Shown: positions 4,012 to 64,000 of the stretch, piece by piece
How positions within the stretch are numbered: position 1 is the first letter of the stretch
Layout of the letters: the number at the start of each line of letters is the position of its first letter
Assembly: GCA_964537075.1 (NCBI GenBank)
Contig: CAZIBB010000001.1
Location: 19,072 to 83,071 of the forward strand
Source of the DNA: an uncultured Bdellovibrionales bacterium
GTDB lineage: Bacteria; Patescibacteriota; Minisyncoccia; Moranbacterales; UBA1568
DNA length: 64,000 bases
Reading direction: 5' to 3'
The notes under the pieces: model-generated
What the model saw: the letters and a program-made list of their open reading frames with translations, nothing else
Databases searched by the model: none
What the model was told of the DNA's origin: nothing
Translations under genes and position numbers: made by a program

Positions 4012-4051
4012 TTTTGGAGGCTAAACCTCCATGGAGGTTTAGCCTCCAAAA
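4012..4051. repeat. REP-like perfect palindrome TTTTGGAGGCTAAACCTCCATGGAGGTTTAGCCTCCAAAA flanking the transposase 3' end
   Basis: The 32-nt core GGAGGCTAAACCTCC-ATGG-AGGTTTAGCCTCC is its own reverse complement. It abuts the transposase stop codon at 4052-4054. Confidence 0.9.
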
Positions 4052-4711
4052 TTATTCCATCAACAAAGCTCTTTCAATCTGCTTTCTTTCTAAAATTCCA
4101 ATTAGGGAACTCTCTGAAAAATCTTTGTATTCCTCTTGACTGCGGAATTGTCCAAGTACAATATTTTTTTCACAATATTCGCGCTTTGTTTTTCCGATAT
4201 ATTCATTCCAACTTGAACGAGTAAGAATATCATCTTCATATCGATGCACACGAAAATTCAGATTTACATACGCACTCAAGTGCAATAAATATTCATTCGT
4301 TTCAATATGAATTGCCTTGAATGTTCCCTGGAACAGCGAGCCGCTTCGTGTATACTTTTTATTGAAATACATCGTGTATCCTGTACCAAATCGCTGCATA
4401 AACTTCTCCACCCCCTTATCTGAAACCTGCCTAAGAATAAAATGGAAATGATTCGGATTAATGCAGTATGCAATAACCTCAACCAACGGCTCTTCCTTTT
4501 CTTCATCCTTTATAACTACCTTTCCAAAACTTTTTTCATGAGATTTTTTTTCATAAATACTCCCTATAGGATTGAGTGTATTAAATTCAACCATGCTCTG
4601 CAGAAACCTCTCTGCATCAGTCACATCTTCTATAATCATTCTCTTTTCCACTCCACGATTATAAATATGATATACCTCCTCATTTGCAAATATCACTTTT
4701 CTCATAAGCAT
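4052..4711 (-). CDS. REP-associated tyrosine transposase (RAYT; Y1 HUH, IS200-like Y1_Tnp family)
   Basis: N-terminal YHIYNRG, HUH motif NPNHFHFIL, and a GSLFQGTFKAIHIE block comparable to the GxLWQxRYY region of Y1 transposases. The ORF track starts at 4756, inside the palindrome; the likely true start is M at 4711 or 4705 (MLMRKV...). Confidence 0.75.
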   Translation of the reverse strand: MLMRKVIFANEEVYHIYNRGVEKRMIIEDVTDAERFLQSMVEFNTLNPIGSIYEKKSHEKSFGKVVIKDEEKEEPLVEVIAYCINPNHFHFILRQVSDKGVEKFMQRFGTGYTMYFNKKYTRSGSLFQGTFKAIHIETNEYLLHLSAYVNLNFRVHRYEDDILTRSSWNEYIGKTKREYCEKNIVLGQFRSQEEYKDFSESSLIGILERKQIERALLME

Positions 4712-4719
4712 TGACGTTA

Positions 4720-4756
4720 TTTGGAGGCTAAACCTCCATGGAGGTTTAGCCTCCAC
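4720..4756. repeat. REP-like palindrome, second copy, flanking the transposase 5' end
   Basis: TTTGGAGGCTAAACCTCCATGGAGGTTTAGCCTCC, identical core to 4012..4051. Confidence 0.9.
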
Positions 4757-5837: not shown

Positions 5838-5975
5838 ACGAGGAAAACACAAAAAATCAAACCACAAAAATCCAGACAAAGCACAGATATACAAAACACA
5901 AACTATACAAGGCTCTCGATTTTTTGTTTGGCATTTTGTGTTCTGAGCTTTGTGCTTTCAAAAAAATTTATCTTA
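5838..5975. repeat. CA-rich/TG-rich long inverted repeat, copy 1, with conserved core TTTGTTTGGCATTTTGTGTTCTGAGCTTTGTGCTTT
   Basis: ACAAAGCACAGATATACAAAACACAAA is followed by its approximate reverse complement. It lies 5' of the ABC ATPase gene; the core is shared with 6973..7135 and 62411..62563. Confidence 0.7.
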
Positions 5976-6972: not shown

Positions 6973-7135
6973 GATTCGTATTAAAACACAATAATCAAAG
7001 CACAAAGACCAAACAAATCACAAAACACAGGAGCCAAAAAGCATCTTACACAAAGAGATTTGTTTGTGTTTTGAATTTTGTGTTTTGTTTGACATTTTGT
7101 GTTCTGGGTTTTGTGTTTTTTAAAACAAGTTTGAT
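6973..7135. repeat. CA/TG inverted repeat, copy 2 (core TGTTTTGTTTGACATTTTGTGTTCTGGGTTTTGTGTTTTTT)
   Basis: Same architecture as copy 1, 5' of the HlyD gene. Confidence 0.7.
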
Positions 7136-8042: not shown

Positions 8043-9734
8043 CTATTGCGATCGCATATCCAGTATTTTCAGCTGAAGCGAAGTAACGCCATTCCAGATA
8101 TTCTCCGACAGCTGACATACAGCGGATACTCTATCACCTTCTTTCAAATCCGCAAAGCGTTCCCCGAGAGAAAAAGCGATGGCATCAATACATTTCTCAC
8201 CAGAACGAAAAGCGATTTTCAAGTGTTTTTTTCCATTTCCAACGAAACGAATATTCTCGATAATGAGATTTTCAAGCAAAAATACCGGTTCTGGATTCCC
8301 CTGGCCAAAAGGTGCAAAACCCTGAATCTGAGAGAGGAAATCCATCGTCAAATGAACCGGATCGATACGGATATCGATTGATAATTCCGGCTCGGTCATC
8401 TGATTTGGCAACAGCTCCCGCACCATCATGTCGAACCGATCGCGAAACAACGAGAGATTCTCATTCCTCACGGTCAATCCTGCCGCCTGCGCATGTCCGC
8501 CGAATTTTTCCAGAAGATCCCCGCAGCGCTCGACGACCTCGATGATATTGAGTCCAGGAATGCTCCGAAGAGAGCCCGTGCTATGCTCATCATACTGTTG
8601 GAGCACCACGACCGGTTTCCCAATCTCACGCGCGATAGTACCGGCGACCAAACCAACCACGCCAATCGTGTATTCCGGATGCACGGCGATAATCGATTGA
8701 CGATCTTTTTGCAGACGAGCTTCGGCTCGCACGAGTCCGGAAATCCGCTCGGATAATTTTCGGCGATCATTGTTCAACTGCTCCAATTGATTCGCGAGCA
8801 GATTCGCTTCCGATTGATCAATCGACGAAAGCAAATCATGGGCGATTCTCCCGTGATCCATACGGCTTGCCGCATTGATGCGCGGCCCGATCTGAAATCC
8901 GATAGTCCTCGCATCAGGTTTGTTCCACTCGTCGATTTTCAGTTTCCCCACGGCATACATCTCCTGCAATCCGATATTGCGCGTCTTCGCGAGAACGATA
9001 AGTCCATAGGTCACGATAGCCCGATTCTCGCCGATAAGCGGCATTACATCCGCGACCGTTCCGACCGCCACGAGATCAAGAAGCCATTTCAATTCCCCGC
9101 TCCTCTCAGGCGCGAGCTCCTGATACAGCGCCTGGATCACCTTGAATGTCGTCCCTGCACCGCAGAGTTCCTGAAACGGATAGCCGCAGTCCTTCACCTT
9201 TGGGTTGATAATCGCGAACGCATCCGGAAATATTTTCGGCACATGATGATGATCGATGATGATGACATCCATACCGAGACGATTCGCTTCCGCCACTTCT
9301 TCGATATCCGTCATCCCGCAATCGACCGTAAACATCACGGTCACGCCCTCTTTTTGAAAAGCGATAAGTGCGTTTCGGTGTATCCCATGACCTTCTTTTT
9401 CCTTATGCGGAATATATACCGTCACCAGAAAACCAAGCCGCTCCAAAGCGGTTCGCAAAAGAACCGATGAGGTCACTCCGTCCGCATCATAATCACCGAA
9501 GATACCGATGCGTTCTCCGGAATCAAGAGCTTTCTTCATCCGATCCGTCACTTTCCGCATCGAGACGAATAAAAACGGATCATGGAAATCACGATCATAG
9601 TCCGGACGAAAAAACCGTTCAATTGACGACGCATCGGTATACCCACGATTCGAAAGGAGTGCTTCGGTTATAGGATGATACGGAGTCTTCGCTTCCCGTG
9701 TGGCTGAGTCAATTTTCACTTTCCATTTCGCCAC
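8043..9734 (-). CDS. recJ: Single-stranded-DNA-specific exonuclease RecJ (DHH family)
   Basis: DHH motifs IGIFGDYDADGVTSS, IIIDHHH, GGHAQAAG; 563 aa. Confidence 0.85.
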   Translation of the reverse strand: MAKWKVKIDSATREAKTPYHPITEALLSNRGYTDASSIERFFRPDYDRDFHDPFLFVSMRKVTDRMKKALDSGERIGIFGDYDADGVTSSVLLRTALERLGFLVTVYIPHKEKEGHGIHRNALIAFQKEGVTVMFTVDCGMTDIEEVAEANRLGMDVIIIDHHHVPKIFPDAFAIINPKVKDCGYPFQELCGAGTTFKVIQALYQELAPERSGELKWLLDLVAVGTVADVMPLIGENRAIVTYGLIVLAKTRNIGLQEMYAVGKLKIDEWNKPDARTIGFQIGPRINAASRMDHGRIAHDLLSSIDQSEANLLANQLEQLNNDRRKLSERISGLVRAEARLQKDRQSIIAVHPEYTIGVVGLVAGTIAREIGKPVVVLQQYDEHSTGSLRSIPGLNIIEVVERCGDLLEKFGGHAQAAGLTVRNENLSLFRDRFDMMVRELLPNQMTEPELSIDIRIDPVHLTMDFLSQIQGFAPFGQGNPEPVFLLENLIIENIRFVGNGKKHLKIAFRSGEKCIDAIAFSLGERFADLKEGDRVSAVCQLSENIWNGVTSLQLKILDMRSQ

Positions 9735-12588: not shown

Positions 12589-12640
12589 AGTTTGAAGAAG
12601 AGTTTAGAGGAGAGAGATGAGAGTTTAGGAATTTTTATAA

Positions 12641-12664
12641 CGCCTGCCTGCCGGTAGGCAGGCG
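12641..12664. repeat. GC-rich palindrome CGCCTGCCTGCC-GGTA-GGCAGGCAGGCG
   Basis: Perfect 10-bp arms. Same family as 36323..36345 and 37421..37444. Confidence 0.85.
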
Positions 12665-22827: not shown

Positions 22828-22848
22828 AATGGTATATTCAACGTTTAG

Positions 22849-23036
22849 AATCTCTCTCAGATCTCACCGCAAAGATGAAAAAACAAAGACTTCTTCTGCT
22901 TGTCGCCTGAAATTCCATAATTTTGGCTGCAAATCCTGAAAAGCTCGTCGGGTTATCATGATAGCCCTCCTCACTTTTTCAGAATTTTCGCTCAAACTGA
23001 TGGAATTTCATGCCCGACATGAGATTTGAGAGAGAC
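22849..23036. mobile_element. MITE-like element, copy i (TIR flavour TCTCTCTCAGATCTCA / TGAGATTTGAGAGAGA)
   Basis: Terminal inverted repeats of 16 bp. The internal core CTGCTTGTCG..GGCTGCAAATCCTGAAAAGCTCGTCGGGTTATCATGATAGCCCTCCTCAC..TTTTCGCTC is shared with 41837..42018, 56352..56532 and 63832..64000. Confidence 0.8.
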
Positions 23037-23732
23037 TCTTTTAGAAATGCCTTTCCCGCGCCTCACGAGACAGAAAAGAAAGAGTGCCTCCGAAGCGAGG
23101 ATCTTGAATATCTCATAATCATCGAACTCATTCGATTTCTTCGGAAACACGATGAAGGCACGGAAATGATCCACGGCCTTCGGAGACGCCACCCGATAAT
23201 GATCATTTTCCAGCCAAAAATGACGTACTTTTTCATGAAGGAGAGATTCATGGGTAATATCTGAGAAAACACCTTTCTTCCCGCTCACGAAGGATCTCTC
23301 TATGCGGTGTTCCGTCGTATGTACGAAATATATGGCTACCGAATCAGCCTTGGAAAGAATCTTTACCGCATCGAGTATCGGCTGATACAGCTCATCGTCC
23401 TTGGCAGTCCGACCGAATGTGGCGAGCGTCCCCGGAAGCGCCCCAACTGACCGCTTGAGGATTTCGAATTTCCGGTTGAGTTCACCAATATATGAATACG
23501 AGCTCTCAAGATCCTTGAAAATGATATTTTTCTCTTGTCGTATTTTTTTTTGTTCCCCGCGTATTTTTCTGAGAGCGCGCTCTTTCGCGAGGTACAGAAG
23601 AAATCCTATCAAGGAAAGGAAAAAGATAAACAATGATTCCGCGTCATCCTCACTCAAAAAGAAATATCCCTGCCGAATATACTCCGGTGAGAATACCATG
23701 AGAACGAAAATAGTGAGGTATATCCAATACAC
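22992..23732 (-). CDS. Hypothetical membrane protein; its last 15 or so codons come from the MITE
   Basis: 246 aa. Two N-terminal TM helices. The C-terminus ...KRVSLKSHVGHEIPSV lies inside MITE copy i. Confidence 0.4.
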   Translation of the reverse strand: MYWIYLTIFVLMVFSPEYIRQGYFFLSEDDAESLFIFFLSLIGFLLYLAKERALRKIRGEQKKIRQEKNIIFKDLESSYSYIGELNRKFEILKRSVGALPGTLATFGRTAKDDELYQPILDAVKILSKADSVAIYFVHTTEHRIERSFVSGKKGVFSDITHESLLHEKVRHFWLENDHYRVASPKAVDHFRAFIVFPKKSNEFDDYEIFKILASEALFLFCLVRRGKGISKRVSLKSHVGHEIPSV

Positions 23733-25474: not shown

Positions 25475-25490
25475 AGTTTTTGATTATGCA

Positions 25491-25532
25491 TTTTTGGAGG
25501 TCGAACCTCCATGGAGGTTCGACCTCCAAAAA
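25491..25532. repeat. REP-like palindrome, third (orphan) copy, variant GGAGGTCGAACCTCC-ATGG-AGGTTCGACCTCC
   Basis: Same GGAGG...CCTCC-ATGG-GGAGG...CCTCC architecture as the copies flanking the transposase. The loop change CTAAA to TCGAA is mirrored symmetrically in the other half. Confidence 0.85.
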
Positions 25533-26774
25533 TTACTTATACAACGGAAACTGCTTGCATAACACTCGTATATCCTTACGCAACTTGTTACGTAACTTCG
25601 CATCGCCTTTATTCTTCCAGGCGGTATCGATGATACGGGCGATTTCCTTCACTTCACGCTCTTTCATCCCGCGTGTCGTGATCGCTGGAACGCCGATACG
25701 CACCCCACTCGGATCGAGCGGCCCGCGCGGATCATCCGGAATGACATTCTTATTGATGGTGATCCCCACTTCCTCCAATATATATTCCGCTTCCTTTCCA
25801 GTGAGGCCATAGCTCTTCACCGTATCGATCACGATCATATGATTCTCCGTTCCACCGAAGAGAATATACGCGCCGCCCTTATAGAGTTCCTTTTCGAGCA
25901 CCTTCGCATTTTTCAGTGTCTGTTTCGCGTACTTCCTGAACTCTGGTTTCAATGCCTCACCGAATGCCACCGCTTTGGCCGCCACGACGTGCATGTGTGG
26001 CCCTCCCTGCGTTCCCGGGAAAATAGCCTTGTCAATCGCCCTTGCAAATTCTTTCTTGCAGAGAATCATGCCTCCACGCGGTCCGCGCAGCGTCTTGTGC
26101 GTCGTCGCTGTCACGATATCGAAGTGCGGCACCGGACTCGGCAGCGCTTTCCCGGCGATGAGTCCCGCGATATGCGCCATGTCCATCATGGTCAATGCCT
26201 TCACCTTCTTTGCAATCGCGACGAACAACGCATAATCAATCTGCCGGGTATATGAAGAGAATCCCGCGAGCATGAGCTTCGGTTTTTCTTTTCTCGCAAG
26301 CGCTTCCAATTTTTTATAATCGATGCTGCCATCAGGTTCGGTTTTGTACCGAACGAAATTATACACCTTGGCCGGCAAGGTCACCGGATGACCATGCGTC
26401 AGATGTCCGCCATGAGAGAGATCCATGCCGAGCACCGTATCGCCCGGCTGAAGGAGTGCTGCATATACAGCGAGATTCGCCTGCGCCCCCGAATGCGCCT
26501 GCACATTCGCATGTTCCGCTCCGAACAATTTCTTCACGCGATCGAGCGCGAGCGTTTCCGCGACATCCGTCCATTCCTGTCCGCCATAGTACCTTTTCCC
26601 CGGATACCCTTCGGAATATTTGTTCGTGAAGACCGTCCCGAGCGTTTCCATCACCGCCTGCGAGACATAATTCTCCGACGCGATCATTTCCAATCCTTCT
26701 TCCTGCCGTTTTTCTTCGCCCATCACCGCGGCATACACCGCCTTGTCCGCCTTCTTCAGAATATCATGCTTCAT
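25533..26774 (-). CDS. glyA: Serine hydroxymethyltransferase
   Basis: PLP site [12 protein letters not shown] and the GHLTHGH block; 413 aa. Confidence 0.9.
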
Positions 26775-36300: not shown

Positions 36301-36322
36301 ATTTTTTTGTTTTTATTTTTGC

Positions 36323-36345
36323 CTGCCTGCCATAGGCAGGTTCAT
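36323..36345. repeat. GC-rich palindrome GCCTGCCTGCC-ATA-GGCAGG (family of 12641)
   Basis: ftsL-rsmH spacer. Confidence 0.7.
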
Positions 36346-36363: not shown

Positions 36364-37329
36364 CTATATTTTTTCCGCGACACGAAGTTTCGCGCTTCGC
36401 GAACGGGAGTTCTTCGCTTCCTCTTCCTCACTTGGTCCGATCGGTTTCCCGGTAATGATCTTGAGCCGGGGGGTTTTCCCGCACCGACATTCCGGAAAAT
36501 TCGCTGGACAGACACATCCCTTCGCCTCGGCTCGAAAAAATTCCTTCACGATTCGACCCTCGCCGGAATGAAACGTGATGACCACGAGCCGGCCACCCAC
36601 CGCCAATCGGCTCGCCGCGGCGGGAAGAAATACACTCAACCGTTCGAATTCCCGATTGACTTCGATGCGCAAGGCCTGAAAGACCTTGGTTGCGGGATGA
36701 ATACCAATCGCCCGACGCTCCGCACCCGAGAATACCCCTTCGATAATCGCCGCGAGTTCCGTCGTCGTCCGTATCGGCTTTCGTTTTCGCTCCATGGCGA
36801 TGCGTCGGGCAATCCGCTTCGCCTTCGATTCATCGCCATAGAGGGAAAATATTTCCGAAAGTCGCTCTTCCGAATATCGCCGCAGTATCTCTTCGGCCGT
36901 CAGGGCATCATCTTGATTCAGTCGCATATCGAGCGGTCCGTCATGCACGAATGAGAATCCGCGTCCGGATTCCTCGATCTGATCCGATGAGAACCCGAGA
37001 TCCGCCATGATACCCTGCACCTTCCCGATGCCCAGCCGATCAAGTTCGCTCTCGATATGGGAAAAGTTTTCACGGACGACCACAAGGCGCCCATCCCGAT
37101 ACGCCTGCTCCAATACGGGATCGTTTTCTATCCTCCCGAGAAAACGATCAACCGCCTGCGCATCCATATCAAATGAAATTACCTTCCCTGTCGGAAGCAC
37201 CCGCTCCAAGAGCGCAAGCGTGTGACTGCCACCGCCAAGCGTGGCATCCACGACGATATCGCCATCCTTCAGACAAAGTGCCTGTATTGTCTCTTCTAAA
37301 AGAACCGGGATATGTTTCGTCGCTTCCAT
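36364..37329 (-). CDS. rsmH: 16S rRNA (cytosine1402-N4)-methyltransferase RsmH (MraW)
   Basis: HIPVLLEE...VDATLGGGSHT. Confidence 0.9.
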   Translation of the reverse strand: MEATKHIPVLLEETIQALCLKDGDIVVDATLGGGSHTLALLERVLPTGKVISFDMDAQAVDRFLGRIENDPVLEQAYRDGRLVVVRENFSHIESELDRLGIGKVQGIMADLGFSSDQIEESGRGFSFVHDGPLDMRLNQDDALTAEEILRRYSEERLSEIFSLYGDESKAKRIARRIAMERKRKPIRTTTELAAIIEGVFSGAERRAIGIHPATKVFQALRIEVNREFERLSVFLPAAASRLAVGGRLVVITFHSGEGRIVKEFFRAEAKGCVCPANFPECRCGKTPRLKIITGKPIGPSEEEEAKNSRSRSAKLRVAEKI

Positions 37330-37344
37330 ACTCCATCATTTCTT

Positions 37345-37466
37345 AATTTCGAATTTCGAATTTTTAATTTCGAGTGAATTCTAAATGACTTCATATTTCA
37401 ATCATTCAAAAACTCATCATTCCTGCCTGCCGGCAGGCAGGGATTCAAAATTCGAAATTCGAAATT
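37345..37466. mobile_element. 122-bp mini-element with perfect 20-nt terminal inverted repeats (AATTTCGAATTTCGAATTTT) enclosing a CCTGCCTGCC-GGCAGGCAGG palindrome
   Basis: Left arm 37345-37364, right arm 37447-37466 (exact reverse complement). Internal palindrome 37421-37444. It fills the mraZ-rsmH spacer. Confidence 0.6.
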
Positions 37467-37469
37467 TCT

Positions 37470-37904
37470 TTAATAGACCCCAAGCTTCCCCAGCTGCTCC
37501 GCGATCTTCCCCGTCTGTTTCTCCGCGAGTCCCTTGTATTTCTTCCACCGATCCTCGCTCCAGATTTCCAATCGATTATAAAGACCGACCACCACGGTAT
37601 CTTTCTTCAATCCGGCGTACGCTTTCAAATAATCCGGTACGAGCACGCGCCCCTGACTGTCGAGATCGACATCCACCGCACCCGCGAGCATCATACGAGT
37701 GAAGCTTCGAGTCCCCGCTTCTCCGACTGGCATGCTTCCGAGTTTCGCCGCGATCTCCTCCCATACTTTCATCGGATACACAAAGAGACAGTCATCAAGT
37801 CCGCGAGTCACTACTACTTTCGATCCCAACTCACCACGAAATTTCGATGGCATAGCCAACCGCTTCTTCGGATCGATCGTATGATTGTATTCGCCGATAA
37901 ACAT
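37470..37904 (-). CDS. mraZ: Transcriptional regulator MraZ
   Basis: MFIGEYNHTIDPKKRLAMPSKFR..., duplicated MraZ fold; 144 aa. Confidence 0.85.
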   Translation of the reverse strand: MFIGEYNHTIDPKKRLAMPSKFRGELGSKVVVTRGLDDCLFVYPMKVWEEIAAKLGSMPVGEAGTRSFTRMMLAGAVDVDLDSQGRVLVPDYLKAYAGLKKDTVVVGLYNRLEIWSEDRWKKYKGLAEKQTGKIAEQLGKLGVY

Positions 37905-38111
37905 ATTCGTAACTTATAACAAACGACTGACAACCAACGACCAGAAAATACATAAACTAAAAACTGTCGCTGTATTGTTGTAAGTTGTATGTCGTATGTC
38001 GTCAGTTTTTATAGTTTCCCCACTTCTCACCACTTTTAGTGTGAGTAGCTCCATTTTACTCCACTTATAATACAAGCGTCAACATCTCGCCCCACCAAAG
38101 TTATCCACCGT

Positions 38112-41836: not shown

Positions 41837-42018
41837 AGAGCCTGTTGAAAAATCCACCGCCTGTGATATAGAGATCTGCTTGTCGGCTATAATCTCAGAA
41901 TTTCGGCTGCAAATCCTGAAAAGCTCGTCGGGGTATCATGATAGCCCTCCTCACCTGTTCAGAATTTTCGCTCGAAATTCTGAAATTATAACTCGACATG
42001 ACTTTTTCAACAGGCTCT
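41837..42018. mobile_element. MITE-like element, copy ii (TIR flavour AGAGCCTGTTGAAAAA / TTTTTCAACAGGCTCT)
   Basis: 182 bp with perfect 16-17-bp terminal inverted repeats and the same core as copy i. Confidence 0.8.
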
Positions 42019-45484: not shown

Positions 45485-45644
45485 ACCGGTATCCTATCAT
45501 ATTTCCCTGCAAGAAAATAACCCTATCCCCATCAAACAACCCATTGAGCATATAAAAATGGCCATTCATAAACACTTAACCCCTGCGTATCTCTCTCATT
45601 TTTCTTTCCTAAACTCTCTCTTCCAAACTCTCATCTCTGATAGT

Positions 45645-48694: not shown

Positions 48695-48864
48695 AGTATT
48701 TTTCTTTGTATTCTTTGTATTGTTTCTATTATACAACAAAAGCGTAAAAATAGAGAAAAAACAACGCAGGAAGCAAATCCTGCGTTGATTGATCATATTC
48801 ACCGCTTCTCTTTTCTCTACTCTGCCTTCTATTTCCTCACCTCTATCCTCTTCTCTCTTCTCCT

Positions 48865-56338: not shown

Positions 56339-56351
56339 AGTCTTTCCTCTT

Positions 56352-56532
56352 AGAGCCTGTTGAAAAATCCACCGCCTGTCAAAAAAGATATGCTTGTCGG
56401 CTTACATTCCAGAATTTCGGCTGCAAACCCCTCAAAGCTCGTCGGAATATCCCGATATTCCTCCTCACTTTTCACGGTTTTCGCTCGAAATTCTGGAATG
56501 TAACGCTCGACATGGCTTTTTCAACAGGCTCT
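56352..56532. mobile_element. MITE-like element, copy iii (AGAGCCTGTTGAAAAA flavour)
   Basis: 181 bp with perfect terminal inverted repeats. Its end abuts the pilO stop codon. Confidence 0.8.
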
Positions 56533-57248
56533 TAATCCTTGGTATAGACGACGATACTGAAAAAAGCTTGTACTAATTTTTTCGCGACCGGTTGCTCCGA
56601 AACGGAAGCAGTACCATCTGAAAATATCGGGTTATTGGTTACAAACGCACTGCCGCGCGACACGCCAGAATCACTTGGTTCCCATTGCCGTATATCAAGC
56701 GACACCACATCGATCGAATAAGACAATGACTCCAACTGATGCAAGAATTGAGCTACCTTCGCATACTCTCCCCGAACATCGAGGCGAAGCGACATATACT
56801 GATCAAACGGCAGATTCTTGAGAATACTTTCGTCTTTCTTCTTTTCCGTATTACTACTGCTTTCATCACTTAATTTGTCGGCATTTTTTGGGGCGGTGAC
56901 CTTGTTCTTCAGCGCCTGATCCTGATTCGTGATACTAATCTCCACATCATTACCATGAGCCAATAATTCGATACTTTCGATAAACGGTACCACCTGATCA
57001 TGACTGACCAAGGTATCGAATTTCCCCTCGTCCTGAAGGATAAGGTCATACTGTTCCCTCAATTGCGGCAGTTCTTTCACTCGGTTCTCTTTGCTTTCTT
57101 GCAAGGCATGATTCGCTTCGATGGTATTCGCCTTCTCAACGATCAGTCTCTGAAAAGGGAAAATACCCCACTGGAAAAGAGCCGCAAAGAGAAGGAATGC
57201 CGTGGCAATGATTCCCAAGGGGATCCACTTGTGTATGGATGAGTTCAT
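56532..57248 (-). CDS. pilO: Type IV pilus assembly protein PilO
   Basis: N-terminal TM plus coiled coil, positioned after pilN. Confidence 0.55.
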   Translation of the reverse strand: MNSSIHKWIPLGIIATAFLLFAALFQWGIFPFQRLIVEKANTIEANHALQESKENRVKELPQLREQYDLILQDEGKFDTLVSHDQVVPFIESIELLAHGNDVEISITNQDQALKNKVTAPKNADKLSDESSSNTEKKKDESILKNLPFDQYMSLRLDVRGEYAKVAQFLHQLESLSYSIDVVSLDIRQWEPSDSGVSRGSAFVTNNPIFSDGTASVSEQPVAKKLVQAFFSIVVYTKD

Positions 57249-62410: not shown

Positions 62411-62563
62411 ATTTCTTCAAAAAACACAGTCTCCAAAGCACAGAAATCAAACAAAACACAGTATTTAAAAACACAAAACTCAAACCAAGAAAGAGAGAGT
62501 TTGTGCTTTTATTATTCTGCATTGTGTTTTGTTTGGCATTTTGTGTTTTCTATTTTGTGCTTT
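62411..62563. repeat. CA/TG inverted repeat, copy 3 (core TGTGTTTTGTTTGGCATTTTGTGTTTTCTATTTTGTGCTTTTT)
   Basis: Between the pilC stop and the pilin gene start; same conserved core as copies 1 and 2. Confidence 0.7.
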
Positions 62564-63784: not shown

Positions 63785-63831
63785 ACACGTTCTTTATTTT
63801 TCTTTTTTTGGTACACGAAATTCCATAAGTA

Positions 63832-64000
63832 TCTCTCTCAAATCTCACCGCATGAGATAAAAAAACAAAGATTTCTCCTGCTTGTCGGCTAAAATTTCAT
63901 CATTTCGGCTGCAAATCTCGAAAATCTCGTCGGAATATCCAGATATTCCTCCCTGCCCGAAATGCTACGCATGCCGTTGCAGGCGGGCTCACTTTTCAAA
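63832..64000. mobile_element. MITE-like element, copy iv (TCTCTCTCAAATCTCA flavour), truncated by the window end
   Basis: Begins TCTCTCTCAAATCTCACCGCATGAGAT...CTGCTTGTCGGCT...GGCTGCAAATCTCGAAAATCTCGTCGG. Same core as copies i to iii. Confidence 0.7.

What the first reader, a model, noticed from the sequence alone, without database searches (positions are those of the whole stretch)
37345..37466. 122-bp mini-element with perfect 20-nt terminal inverted repeats filling the mraZ-rsmH spacer, containing one of three CCTGCCTGCC/GGCAGGCAGG palindromes
AATTTCGAATTTCGAATTTT (37345-37364) and its exact reverse complement (37447-37466) bracket a GC-rich 24-nt palindrome TCCTGCCTGCCGGCAGGCAGGGA. Related palindromes sit at 12641-12664 (downstream of mltG) and 36323-36345 (ftsL-rsmH spacer). 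The mraZ-rsmH spacer is normally short and unremarkable. A TIR-bounded insertion there could affect polarity within the division/cell-wall cluster or provide an RNA hairpin or processing site. The GC-rich palindromes stand out in a roughly 47 % GC genome.
Basis: seen in the sequence. Interest (0 to 1): 0.5.

Follow-up and report, generated by a model that had tools for sequence, protein, structure and literature searches.

The report
Conserved spacer hairpin plus inserted mini-palindrome
The "mini-transposon" between the cell-division genes mraZ and rsmH is really a native RNA-type hairpin built from inverted 7-base microsatellites and shared with related bacteria, and the only piece truly inserted into it is a 20-base GC palindrome that also turns up, letter for letter, in unrelated uncultured phages.

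Summary
The sequence is as described. A perfect 20-nt inverted repeat (24 nt with one mismatch) at 37345-37368/37443-37466 encloses a perfect 20-nt GC palindrome (37422-37441). It fills the 140-nt mraZ-rsmH spacer of a Candidatus Moranbacteria (CPR) genome.

The 122-bp unit is not a MITE. Its "TIRs" are inverted heptanucleotide microsatellites, (AATTTCG)~3/(CGAAATT)~3. Orthologous hairpins with 7-nt-periodic arms sit in the same spacer in many relatives and show compensatory arm changes. In one pair they are 83% identical where synonymous sites are saturated. BLAST finds the arms nowhere else in the window or in 273 kb of related DNA.

The fold loops out almost the whole spacer. The mraZ stop and rsmH start end up about 18 nt apart, as in relatives that lack it. 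I read it as a native intercistronic RNA stem-loop that keeps the two genes coupled and is probably a processing or stability site.

The inserted piece is the GC palindrome. It is absent from all nine aligned relatives and inserted precisely, without duplication; the ftsL-rsmH copy is the same. The exact 20-mer occurs 42 times in uncultured-phage contigs (two control palindromes: 0), including inside tRNA loops and heptamer arrays. No paper in the searchable library holds it.

The parts
37443..37466 (-). 5' arm of the outer stem in mRNA sense: AATTTCGAATTTCGAATTTTGAAT, made of (AATTTCG)-type heptamer repeats. It starts 3 nt after the mraZ stop codon.
   Evidence: 7-nt periodicity z = 5.2
37345..37368 (-). 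3' arm of the outer stem in mRNA sense: ATTAAAAATTCGAAATTCGAAATT, made of (CGAAATT)-type heptamer repeats. It ends 15 nt before the rsmH ATG.
37422..37441 (.). PAL: perfect 20-nt palindrome CCTGCCTGCCGGCAGGCAGG. It forms its own stem-loop inside the big hairpin. It is a lineage-specific precise insertion: WIN reads GAATC|PAL|AATGATGA where L002 reads GAATC|AATGATGA.
   Evidence: (absent from all 9 aligned relatives)
37369..37421 (-). Inner AU-rich stem-loop of the three-way fold. The segment AATGATGAGTTTTTGAA is shared with L002.
37330..37469 (-). Whole mraZ-rsmH intercistronic spacer (140 nt, 33% GC). All but 18 nt are looped out by the hairpin.
37470..37904 (-). mraZ (144 aa)
   Evidence: Pfam PF02381, E 3e-36
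36364..37329 (-). rsmH/mraW (321 aa)
   Evidence: Pfam PF01795, E 5e-102; homologues named Candidatus Moranbacteria/Moraniibacteriota
36322..36340 (.). PAL variant CCTGCCTGCCATAGGCAGG in the rsmH-ftsL spacer. It is also absent from the closest relatives at the orthologous site.
12643..12662 (.). PAL variant CCTGCCTGCCGGTAGGCAGG, 44 nt downstream of the mltG/yceG stop codon.
37926..38006 (-). Second heptamer-repeat hairpin (CGACATA/CAACTTA units) in the mraZ 5' leader, between the MraZ-box-like GTGG repeats and the mraZ start. mraZ is therefore bracketed by two such hairpins.

Best explanation
The 122-bp feature is a native intercistronic stem-loop of the mraZ-rsmH transcript, not a transposon.

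Structure (shown). Its two arms are inverted heptanucleotide microsatellites, (AATTNNN)n paired with (NNNAATT)n. The self-complementary AATT core is fixed and the three variable bases co-vary between the arms. Versions of the hairpin occupy the same spacer in a large part of this Moranbacteria clade. In this genome it has additionally received a precise 20-nt insertion, the GC palindrome PAL, which belongs to a separate dispersed family.

Geometry (shown). The fold loops out 122 of the 140 spacer bases. The mraZ stop codon and the rsmH start codon then sit at the foot of the stem, 3 + 15 nt apart. That equals the 1-24-nt spacers of relatives without a hairpin.

How it works (inferred).
1. The hairpin is tolerated, and coupled translation of rsmH is kept, because a ribosome terminating on mraZ melts the foot of the stem next to the rsmH initiation region.
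2. The 20-24-bp perfect double-stranded stem and the GC stem-loop act as operon punctuation. They would be an RNase III-type cleavage site and/or a 3'-end protective hairpin, letting the mraZ segment have a fate different from the downstream dcw genes. mraZ also carries a hairpin in its 5' leader.
3. Slippage generates the 7-nt units. Selection for pairing, or copying of one arm from the other, keeps the arms complementary.
For: Orthology and locus specificity:
- The WIN spacer arms match only inside the mraZ-rsmH spacers of L002/L003 and L161/L162 in 337 kb searched.
- Model R1 finds the hairpin in the spacers of non-training loci: L143 at 65.6 bits, L160 at 57.7 and L136 at 45.5.
- The L127 and L142 spacers are 82.8% identical over 134 nt (E 7e-16). 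Their four-fold degenerate sites are saturated, with 28 of 98 the same.

Pairing is maintained:
- The 10-sequence alignment shows AATT invariant every 7 nt in both arms.
- RNAalifold finds a 17-bp consensus stem in which 7 pairs carry double compensatory changes, such as CG/GC/UA.
- Lag 7 is the best period in 21 of 34 long spacers. Mean autocorrelation is 0.435 against a baseline of about 0.29.

RNA-sense bias:
- Interior G.U pairs number 180 on the sense strand and 58 on the antisense strand in 55 hairpin segments.
- WIN folds to -49.4 kcal/mol in sense and -43.3 in antisense.

Geometry:
- In 22 hairpin-bearing spacers the stem starts 0-9 nt after the stop in 20 and ends 0-15 nt before the ATG in 20.
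- Hairpin-less relatives have spacers of 1-24 nt.
- In 15 of 24 spacers at least 4 nt of the rsmH -13..+3 region pair with the 15 nt either side of the mraZ stop; WIN has 8.

Not a terminator:
- 21 of 22 spacers have no T-run after the stem.
- The scan calls no terminator or promoter in the spacer.

PAL is a separate insertion:
- It is absent from all 9 aligned relatives.
- The rsmH-ftsL copy is likewise absent from L126 and L002.
Against: - There are no transcript data. Every RNA-level step is inference.
- The sense-versus-antisense folding-energy difference over 40 spacers is not significant: 25 versus 15, Wilcoxon p = 0.087. The G.U excess could partly reflect strand-biased C-to-T mutation.
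- Within the WIN/L002/L126 clade the spacer diverges about as fast as synonymous sites: 54-67% against 53-57%. Sequence-level constraint is therefore weak there.
- The hairpin is dispensable. Sister lineages lack it, for example L150 with 119 nt against L156 with 20 nt.
- Related hairpins occur at other sites and can differ between near-identical strains. L003 3403-3510 has one where L002 has none. That looks like turnover, not fixed function.
- In WIN the predicted pairing of the rsmH start region (0.48) is not above the window average of 0.54.
- No RNase III gene lies in the 64-kb window. Its presence in the genome was not tested.
Confidence: 0.55

Rival explanations
1. Function-less palindromic microsatellite. 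Replication slippage makes 7-nt tandem repeats. Intramolecular template switching copies one arm onto the other. The resulting hairpin persists in spacers of this small genome only because it is harmless, being self-folding and looped out. It does nothing for mraZ or rsmH.
For: - The spacer turns over fast and is often lost: length is 1-301 nt, and sister taxa occur with and without it.
- The WIN-clade spacers evolve like synonymous sites.
- Many other spacers in the window carry unrelated long hairpins with 7-nt periodic arms.
- Arrays matching the 19-mer AATTTCGAATTTCGAATTT occur in at least 120 stretches from many phyla, and 42 of 105 have an inverted partner within 350 nt, against 2% for controls.
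- Heptanucleotide repeats are reported as the commonest long SSR class in prokaryotes and ascribed to polymerase slippage (PMC4679880, citing Mrazek 2007).
- The sense/antisense energy test is not significant.
Against: - L127 and L142 are 83% identical across saturated synonymous distance.
- There is a threefold excess of G.U on the mRNA strand.
- The hairpin is consistently placed flush between the stop and start codons.
- The same spacer is occupied across a deep clade.
Confidence: 0.25
2. One reading: a 122-bp miniature inverted-repeat transposable element (MITE) that inserted into a short mraZ-rsmH spacer.
For: - The inverted termini are perfect over 20 nt.
- A 4-nt direct repeat AAGA flanks the unit on the mRNA strand.
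- The effective spacer without it is about 18 nt, like the empty spacers of relatives.
- A related hairpin is present in L003 and absent from the near-identical L002 at another locus.
- The genome carries an IS200-like Y1 transposase.
Against: - There is no second copy of the arms in the 64-kb window or outside this spacer in 273 kb from relatives.
- Orthologous, co-varying hairpins lie at the same site in diverged relatives.
- The termini are simple 7-nt tandem repeats that change unit between lineages, not a conserved transposase-binding end.
- AAGA is not duplicated in relatives, and the left copy belongs to the conserved mraZ end TAAAGAA.
- The Y1 transposase is flanked by a different palindrome.
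Confidence: 0.07
3. Intrinsic terminator or attenuator. The GC palindrome and/or the long stem stop part of the transcription after mraZ.
For: - PAL copies lie 23-44 nt downstream of stop codons in the window.
- In L150 they lie 23 and 45 nt downstream of tRNA genes.
- PAL is a strong GC stem.
Against: - No U-tract follows PAL. The sequence after it is AAUGAUGAG in the mraZ-rsmH spacer and CAAAAAUAAAAAC in the rsmH-ftsL spacer.
- No U-tract follows the outer stem, and 21 of 22 relatives have no T-run.
- The terminator scan reports nothing in the spacer.
- The scan finds no promoter in the spacer, so rsmH, ftsL and the PBP gene have no evident promoter of their own there.
- PAL also sits inside tRNA loops, where termination makes no sense.
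Confidence: 0.05
4. PAL, and so the look of an inserted GC element, is a sequencing or assembly artefact.
For: - Exact PAL was found only in metagenome-derived sequence. A BLAST of a tandem PAL-PAL query against 50,697 cultured-phage records gave only imperfect matches.
- No paper in the searchable library holds the sequence.
Against: - An independent Logan assembly of run ERR3094302 has the same spacer with PAL.
- The window holds two mutated variants, which implies decay in a genome.
- PAL occurs in assemblies from many unrelated projects, with unique sequence continuing on both sides.
- It matches no adapter sequence I know of (own knowledge).
Confidence: 0.02

Closest known systems
Heptanucleotide tandem repeats of prokaryotes (cyanobacterial STRR sequences; TAACTGA repeats of Beggiatoaceae, PMC4679880)
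   Same: The repeats are short tandem arrays of a 7-nt unit with about 3 copies. They are almost exclusively intergenic, often lie directly next to start codons, are phylogenetically scattered, and are ascribed to slippage.
   Different: Here two arrays of complementary units face each other and form one long hairpin that spans a whole intercistronic spacer, and the two arrays co-vary. MacGregor found one inverted set among 170 TAACTGA sets. In my samples 42 of 105 (AATTTCG)n arrays have an inverted partner.
REP / REPIN elements with RAYT transposases (PMC3116915, PMC3733652)
   Same: PAL is a 20-nt extragenic palindrome. It lies mostly downstream of genes and between same-direction ORFs, is present in several copies, is plausibly transcribed as an RNA hairpin, and sits in a genome that encodes an IS200-like Y1 transposase.
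   Different: PAL has no consistent GTAG or CGTC tag. It is not next to the transposase gene, which is flanked by a different palindrome (TGGAGGCTAAACCTCCA doublets). PAL copies are singlets rather than doublets. The identical 20-mer is shared across contigs of 38-68% GC and with phages, whereas REP families are reported as species- or genus-specific.
Small dispersed repeats (SDR, 21-27 nt) of Nostoc (Elhai et al. 2008, Genome Res 18:1484; cited in PMC4390886 and PMC3116915; details from my memory, paper not held)
   Same: Both are ultra-small, near-identical dispersed units inserted precisely. PMC4390886 states that SDR5 inserts between defined nucleotides of HIP1. As I recall, SDRs are often embedded in heptameric repeats and hairpins. 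PAL flanks are enriched in 7-nt periodicity: 8 of 80 flanks exceed the 99th percentile.
   Different: The sequence differs, the hosts differ (CPR bacteria and uncultured phages rather than cyanobacteria), and PAL is a perfect palindrome. Whether the mechanism is shared is unknown.
Intercistronic stem-loops that set differential expression within operons (E. coli malE-malF REP stabiliser; RNase III sites between phage T7 early genes; own knowledge)
   Same: The position is between two co-transcribed cistrons. The stem is a long perfect double strand of about two helical turns, with no terminator tail.
   Different: No processing, stability or expression data exist for this element. Its arms are microsatellites and its sequence is not conserved across the clade.
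UpsM, the structured 268-nt 5' leader of the dcw cluster in Rhodobacteraceae (PMC5089854)
   Same: Both are lineage-specific structured RNA added to the mraZ end of the otherwise conserved dcw cluster.
   Different: UpsM lies upstream of mraZ, contains a Rho-independent terminator and yields an sRNA. The element here lies downstream of mraZ and has no terminator features.
MITEs
   Same: The length is about 120 bp, the element has terminal inverted repeats and is AT-rich, and it folds as a hairpin.
   Different: It is not multicopy in the sampled DNA, it has no convincing target duplication, it is orthologous across relatives, and its termini are variable simple repeats.

Membership tests
MITE | Terminal inverted repeats | tested here: met
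   The repeat is 20 nt perfect and 24 nt at 96%.
MITE | Multiple near-identical copies dispersed in the genome | tested here: not met
   The arms have no other copy in the 64-kb window. No hit lies outside the mraZ-rsmH spacer in 273 kb from relatives. The rest of the source genome was not available.
MITE | Target-site duplication flanking the element | tested here: inconclusive
   A 4-nt AAGA lies on both sides. The left copy is part of the conserved mraZ end, and relatives show no duplication.
MITE | Insertion polymorphism: empty orthologous sites in close relatives | tested here: not met
   The closest relatives (L126, L002, L127) all carry a homologous hairpin in the same spacer. Empty sites occur only in more distant lineages.
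MITE | Cognate autonomous transposon with the same termini | not testable with these tools
   The only transposase in the window (4052-4705) is flanked by a different palindrome.
Heptanucleotide SSR (STRR-like) | Head-to-tail copies of a 7-nt unit, intergenic | tested here: met
   Each arm is (AATTTCG)x2.9. Lag-7 z = 5.2 in WIN, and lag 7 is the best period in 21 of 34 relatives' spacers.
REP/REPIN (for PAL) | Short (20-40 bp) extragenic palindrome in many copies | tested here: inconclusive
   PAL is 20 nt. There are 3 copies in 64 kb, all intergenic, and 2 in L150. The genome-wide copy number is unknown.
REP/REPIN (for PAL) | Conserved unpaired GTAG or CGTC tag at one end | tested here: not met
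   The flanks of 45 copies show no common tag. GTAG is present at only a few, such as L150:566 and L228.
REP/REPIN (for PAL) | Association with a RAYT gene that is flanked by the same REP | tested here: not met
   The RAYT-like gene at 4052-4705 is flanked by TGGAGG...CCTCCA palindromes, not PAL. tblastn finds no homologue in the PAL-bearing phage loci.
Intrinsic terminator | GC-rich stem immediately followed by a U-tract | tested here: not met
   The scan finds none in the spacer. The PAL copies in the mraZ-rsmH and rsmH-ftsL spacers are followed by AAUGAUGAG and CAAAAAUAAAAAC. 21 of 22 relatives have no T-run after the outer stem.
Any Rfam family | Score at or above the family's gathering threshold | tested here: not met
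   The window has no match at gathering thresholds. The best weak match is Clostridiales-1 at 20.3 bits against a threshold of 48.
Nostoc-type SDR (for PAL) | About 21-27-nt near-identical dispersed unit, precisely inserted, often within heptamer repeats or hairpins | tested here: inconclusive
   Size, precision and heptamer association resemble SDRs. There is no sequence relation, the hosts differ, and the defining paper could not be read.

The most novel reading that the evidence does not exclude
PAL (CCTGCCTGCCGGCAGGCAGG) is an undescribed, ultra-small (20-nt) mobile or copy-pasted palindrome. It crosses very wide taxonomic boundaries, from CPR bacteria to phages of hosts with 38-68% GC. 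It inserts precisely and without target duplication into single-stranded or loop positions: a tRNA variable loop, a tRNA D-loop, hairpin interiors and heptamer-repeat arrays. An unknown machinery moves it. In this reading the heptamer-repeat hairpins that fill intercistronic spacers in many phyla are its preferred landing pads, or share its origin.
Probability: 0.3. Interest if true: 0.8.

Novelty: new variant of a known kind. Interest (0 to 1): 0.5.

Why it matters
There are three reasons.

1. It corrects a tempting misreading. Perfect 20-nt "terminal inverted repeats" can be two facing microsatellites that co-evolve, not transposon ends. The same architecture, with the very same AATTTCG unit, occurs in spacers of Acidobacteriota, Verrucomicrobiota, Planctomycetota, Chloroflexota and several CPR groups. 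Annotation pipelines will meet it often.

2. It gives a concrete, testable model for how tiny CPR genomes tolerate or use long spacers inside an essential operon. The hairpin loops the spacer out, and the stop and start codons stay within coupling distance.

3. The 20-nt GC palindrome is the interesting residue. It is an exact sequence shared by a CPR bacterium and unrelated uncultured phages, it is inserted cleanly even into tRNA loops, and it is enriched next to heptamer arrays. If it is mobile, it would be among the smallest mobile DNA units known, and its mover is unidentified.

Tried and rejected
- Exact-protein look-up of the window's RsmH failed when given as a DNA reference and worked through P0001.
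- Two look-ups meant to extend the genome beyond the window returned only 2.6-3.6-kb contigs and added nothing.
- PAL as a footprint or insertion with a 7-nt or 14-nt target duplication, which would have explained heptamer arrays as transposition scars. I rejected this because the three clean empty-versus-filled comparisons show no duplication: WIN against L002, the tRNA-Met variable loop in L232 and the tRNA D-loop in L239. Direct repeats flank PAL only where it already sits in a tandem array.
- Classifying PAL sites in phage contigs as genic or intergenic by crude ORF calling. The result was unreliable in GC-rich DNA and I did not use it. The same holds for a stop-free-frame test on the (AATTTCG)n arrays, because the unit has no stop codon in any frame.
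- Recurrent proteins near PAL are ordinary phage structural genes: portal, capsid and tail tube. None is a candidate mover.
- A promoter for rsmH inside the spacer: none was found.
- A small ORF in the spacer: only 4-aa peptides or an out-of-frame 32-codon ORF.
- Strong masking of the rsmH start in WIN: not supported, with P(paired) 0.48 against a window mean of 0.54.
- Elhai 2008 could not be read.

Full report

- AATTTCGAATTTCGAATTTT lies at 37345-37364 and its perfect reverse complement at 37447-37466. The repeat extends to 24 nt with one mismatch.
- CCTGCCTGCCGGCAGGCAGG, here called PAL, lies at 37422-37441. Variants are at 12643-12662 and 36322-36340.
- Shuffles of the window give 0.01 matches to the arm and 0.00 to the palindrome pattern.
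- The flanking genes, all on the - strand, are mraZ (37470-37904), rsmH (36364-37329), an ftsL-sized ORF and a PBP gene.
- The spacer is therefore 37330-37469, 140 nt.
- On the mRNA-sense strand it folds into a three-way structure at -54 kcal/mol, z = -6.6. The parts are a 20-24-bp outer stem, the PAL stem-loop and an inner AU-rich stem-loop.

RsmH homologues place the organism in Candidatus Moranbacteria/Moraniibacteriota, a CPR lineage. An independent Logan assembly of run ERR3094302 carries the identical spacer.

2. THE "TIRs" ARE TWO FACING MICROSATELLITES

Each arm is a tandem repeat of a 7-nt unit, (AATTTCG)x2.9 and its complement (one search shows the self-shifted matches).

I collected 80 metagenome loci encoding MraZ relatives at 99-57% identity, plus L002-L005. 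I extracted the mraZ-rsmH spacer from each.
- Length ranges from 1 to 301 nt.
- About half are 55 nt or longer, and most of those fold as one long hairpin.
- Lag 7 is the best period in 21 of 34 long spacers. Mean autocorrelation is 0.435 against a baseline of about 0.29.
- The unit differs between lineages: AATTTCG here; AATTTTC in L126, L127, L142, L164 and L169; TAATTTC in L136; CGACTGA in L140, L148 and L153; GTAAATA in L200.

An alignment of ten spacers (A1) shows the self-complementary core AATT invariant every 7 nt in both arms. The three bases between the cores vary, and they vary together. RNAalifold gives a 17-bp consensus stem in which 7 pairs carry changes on both sides that keep the pair.

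3. IT IS ORTHOLOGOUS AND LOCUS-SPECIFIC, NOT A DISPERSED ELEMENT

I used the WIN spacer as a BLAST query against 337 kb, made up of the window and the relatives' loci.
- The arms hit only the same spacer of L002/L003 (30 nt at 93%, 24 nt at 96%) and of L161/L162 (17 nt).
- PAL hits elsewhere.

A covariance model built from A1 finds the hairpin in the mraZ-rsmH spacer of non-training loci: L143, L160 and L136.

The L127 and L142 spacers are 82.8% identical over 134 nt. The four-fold degenerate sites of their flanking genes are saturated, with 28 of 98 the same.

Against a MITE:
- there is no second copy;
- the only flanking direct repeat is a 4-nt AAGA whose left copy belongs to the conserved mraZ end;
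- the termini change unit between lineages.

Two caveats apply.
- Within the WIN/L002/L126 clade the spacer diverges about as fast as synonymous sites.
- The hairpin has been lost or replaced repeatedly on a rough MraZ+RsmH tree, for example L150 with 119 nt against its sister L156 with 20 nt.

The model also picks up related hairpins in mraZ 5' leaders and at one unrelated spacer. That one is L003 3403-3510, which the near-identical L002 lacks. The class as a whole is therefore dynamic.

4. GEOMETRY AND LIKELY MODE OF ACTION

In 22 hairpin-bearing spacers the outer stem starts 0-9 nt after the mraZ stop in 20 and ends 0-15 nt before the rsmH ATG in 20. With the hairpin looped out, the effective spacer is 1-18 nt in most. 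WIN has 3 + 15 nt. That is the range seen in relatives without a hairpin, 1-24 nt.

In 15 of 24 distinct long spacers, at least 4 nt of the rsmH -13..+3 region are predicted to pair with the 15 nt either side of the mraZ stop. In WIN the last mraZ codons UCUAUUA pair with UGAUGGA, which holds the GGAG next to the rsmH start.

There is no terminator signature.
- 21 of 22 spacers have no T-run after the stem.
- The scan reports nothing in the spacer.

Evidence on which strand matters is mixed.
- Non-Watson-Crick positions are biased to G.U on the mRNA strand: 180 interior G.U in sense against 58 in antisense, over 55 hairpin segments.
- The plain energy comparison is not significant: 25 of 40 spacers fold better in sense, p = 0.087.

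mraZ also carries a heptamer-armed hairpin in its 5' leader. I see it in WIN, L002, L126, L127, L130, L133, L136 and L169. In this clade the mraZ cistron is thus bracketed by two long stems.

From established knowledge, cruciform extrusion from duplex DNA is unfavourable when the arms are 74-82 nt apart. The fold is therefore more plausible in a single strand, that is, in the transcript.

My reading, inferred and not shown, is this. The element is a native intercistronic stem-loop that preserves termination-reinitiation coupling of rsmH to mraZ. Its two-turn perfect duplex probably also serves as an RNase III-type processing site or a 3'-end protective site. The main rival, at about 0.25, is that it is a harmless slippage product with no function.

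5. THE INSERTED PIECE IS PAL

- WIN reads GAATC|CCTGCCTGCCGGCAGGCAGG|AATGATGA where L002 reads GAATC|AATGATGA.
- PAL is absent from all nine relatives in A1.
- The rsmH-ftsL copy is likewise an extra 19 nt. WIN has ...GAA|PAL variant|CAAAAATAAAAAC and L126 has ...GAA|CAAAAATAAAAAC.
- In the relatives' loci, exact PAL occurs only in L150. It lies 23 and 45 nt downstream of tRNA-Pro and tRNA-Ala in a tRNA cluster.

A scan of IMG/VR viral contigs found the exact 20-mer in 35 stretches, 42 copies, on contigs of 38-68% GC, with up to 6 copies per contig.
- Two composition-matched control palindromes gave 0 hits: the inside-out version GGCAGGCAGGCCTGCCTGCC and CCGTCCGTCCGGACGGACGG.
- Versions with 1-9 extra central bases gave only 3 stretches.
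- The contigs are real phages, with portal, capsid and tail tube genes.

PAL sits precisely, without duplication, in tRNA sequences.
- In L232 it lies in the variable loop of a tRNA-Met. ARAGORN still calls a 92-nt tRNA.
- In L239 it lies in the D-loop of a tRNA fragment, GCTCAGTTGGTA|PAL|GAGC.

Its flanks are enriched in 7-nt periodicity. 8 of 80 flanks exceed the 99th percentile of controls and 18 of 80 exceed the 95th. Finding PAL inside a heptamer-armed hairpin, as here, is therefore a recurring association.

Other checks on PAL:
- BLAST with a tandem PAL-PAL query found only imperfect matches in 50,697 cultured-phage records.
- No paper in the library contains it.
- It lacks a REP tag.
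- It is not associated with the window's RAYT-like gene.

What moves or copies PAL is unknown.

6. THE ARM UNIT ELSEWHERE

About 4 would be expected from 596 Gb under uniform composition.
- The phyla include Acidobacteriota, Verrucomicrobiota, Planctomycetota, Chloroflexota, Bacteroidota, Desulfobacterota-type lineages, Gammaproteobacteria and several CPR groups.
- 42 of 105 arrays not at a locus edge have an inverted partner (at least 15 of 19 bases) within 350 nt, against 2% for random 19-mers.
- Examples such as L012 and L021 show the same layout of stop codon, hairpin, ribosome-binding site and start codon.

Heptanucleotide repeats are already known as the commonest long SSR class in prokaryotes (PMC4679880). 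The inverted, spacer-filling arrangement is the new twist.

7. VERDICT

- The MITE interpretation is not supported.
- The element is a lineage-conserved, microsatellite-armed intercistronic hairpin carrying a secondary insertion of a small dispersed palindrome.
- I rate it a new variant of known kinds (SSR, intercistronic stem-loop, REP/SDR-like repeat).
- Interest is moderate, and it rests mainly on PAL.

Noticed in passing
window 4012-4755: An IS200-like Y1 (RAYT-like) transposase gene lies at 4052-4705 (-). It scores 30.5 bits on Pfam PF01797; the NCBIfam REP-associated tyrosine transposase match (24.5 bits) is below cut-off. It has an HUH motif (NHFHFIL). Perfect palindromes TGGAGGCTAAACCTCCA|TGGAGGTTTAGCCTCCA flank it on both sides at 4012-4051 and 4722-4755, and a third copy of that palindrome type is at 25490-25533. 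This is a REPIN/RAYT-style arrangement in a CPR genome. Similar perfect palindromes fill the mraZ-rsmH spacer of L159 and L170.
   Followed up: partly
window 22840-23045, 41870-42010, 56345-56535, 63830-64000: A four-copy family of about 130-200-nt intergenic repeats, all in the sense of the - strand genes. The invariant core reads GGAGG..TATC..GAT..CCGACGAG.TTT...TTTGCAGCC.AAAT...GCCGACAAGCA, and each copy folds as a long hairpin. There is no Rfam match beyond generic hairpin noise. It may be a MITE or REPIN-like element, or a structured RNA.
   Followed up: partly
window 5846-5942, 6983-7119, 62468-62549: Three intergenic hairpins share AAAACAC-type 7-nt periodic arms, with 21-33-nt matches between them. 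They form a second family of heptamer-armed hairpins in the same genome.
   Followed up: partly
window 37926-38006 (and leaders of L002, L126, L127, L130, L133, L136, L169): The mraZ 5' leader, between the GTGG-repeat operator-like region and the start codon, holds its own long hairpin with heptamer arms (CGACATA/CAACTTA here, GATTGNA in L002). Other relatives have leaders of only 6-40 nt.
   Followed up: partly
L232 2239-2330; L239 478-545; L209 about 8576-8650: In uncultured-phage contigs the exact 20-nt palindrome sits inside tRNA sequences. In L232 it forms an extra arm in the variable loop of a tRNA-Met. In L239 it lies in the D-loop of a tRNA fragment next to a GIY-YIG-like ORF. In L209 it accompanies a 13-nt deletion of the T-arm.
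   Followed up: partly
L003 3403-3510 versus L002 3560-3595: Two contigs with identical RsmH differ at the DUF2207-mgsA junction. L003 has a 156-nt spacer with a heptamer-armed hairpin that shares CGAATTTCGAATCAA with its own mraZ-rsmH hairpin. In L002 the two genes overlap. This is a recent gain or loss of such a hairpin.
   Followed up: partly
L006-L125 (GTDB genomes): In several genomes (AATTTCG)n arrays lie directly beside arrays of other heptamers. Examples are TCTGCAA in L022, AACTCAA in L035, GGAGTTT in L044 and GGACGAA in L037. Some genomes carry many such loci: Deltaproteobacteria HYP3_US_05_8 has at least 9 and Verrucomicrobiae MFD01248.bin.2.77 at least 6. L006 (Taylorbacteria) has a PAL-like CCTGCCGGGCAGG hairpin next to the array.
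   Followed up: no
window 48803-48864, 45485-45560, 12589-12640: Several 5' leaders are purine-rich, low-complexity and unstructured on the mRNA strand, for example AGGAGAAGAGAGAAGAGGATAGAGG with a folding energy of 0. They contrast with the hairpin-filled spacers.
   Followed up: no
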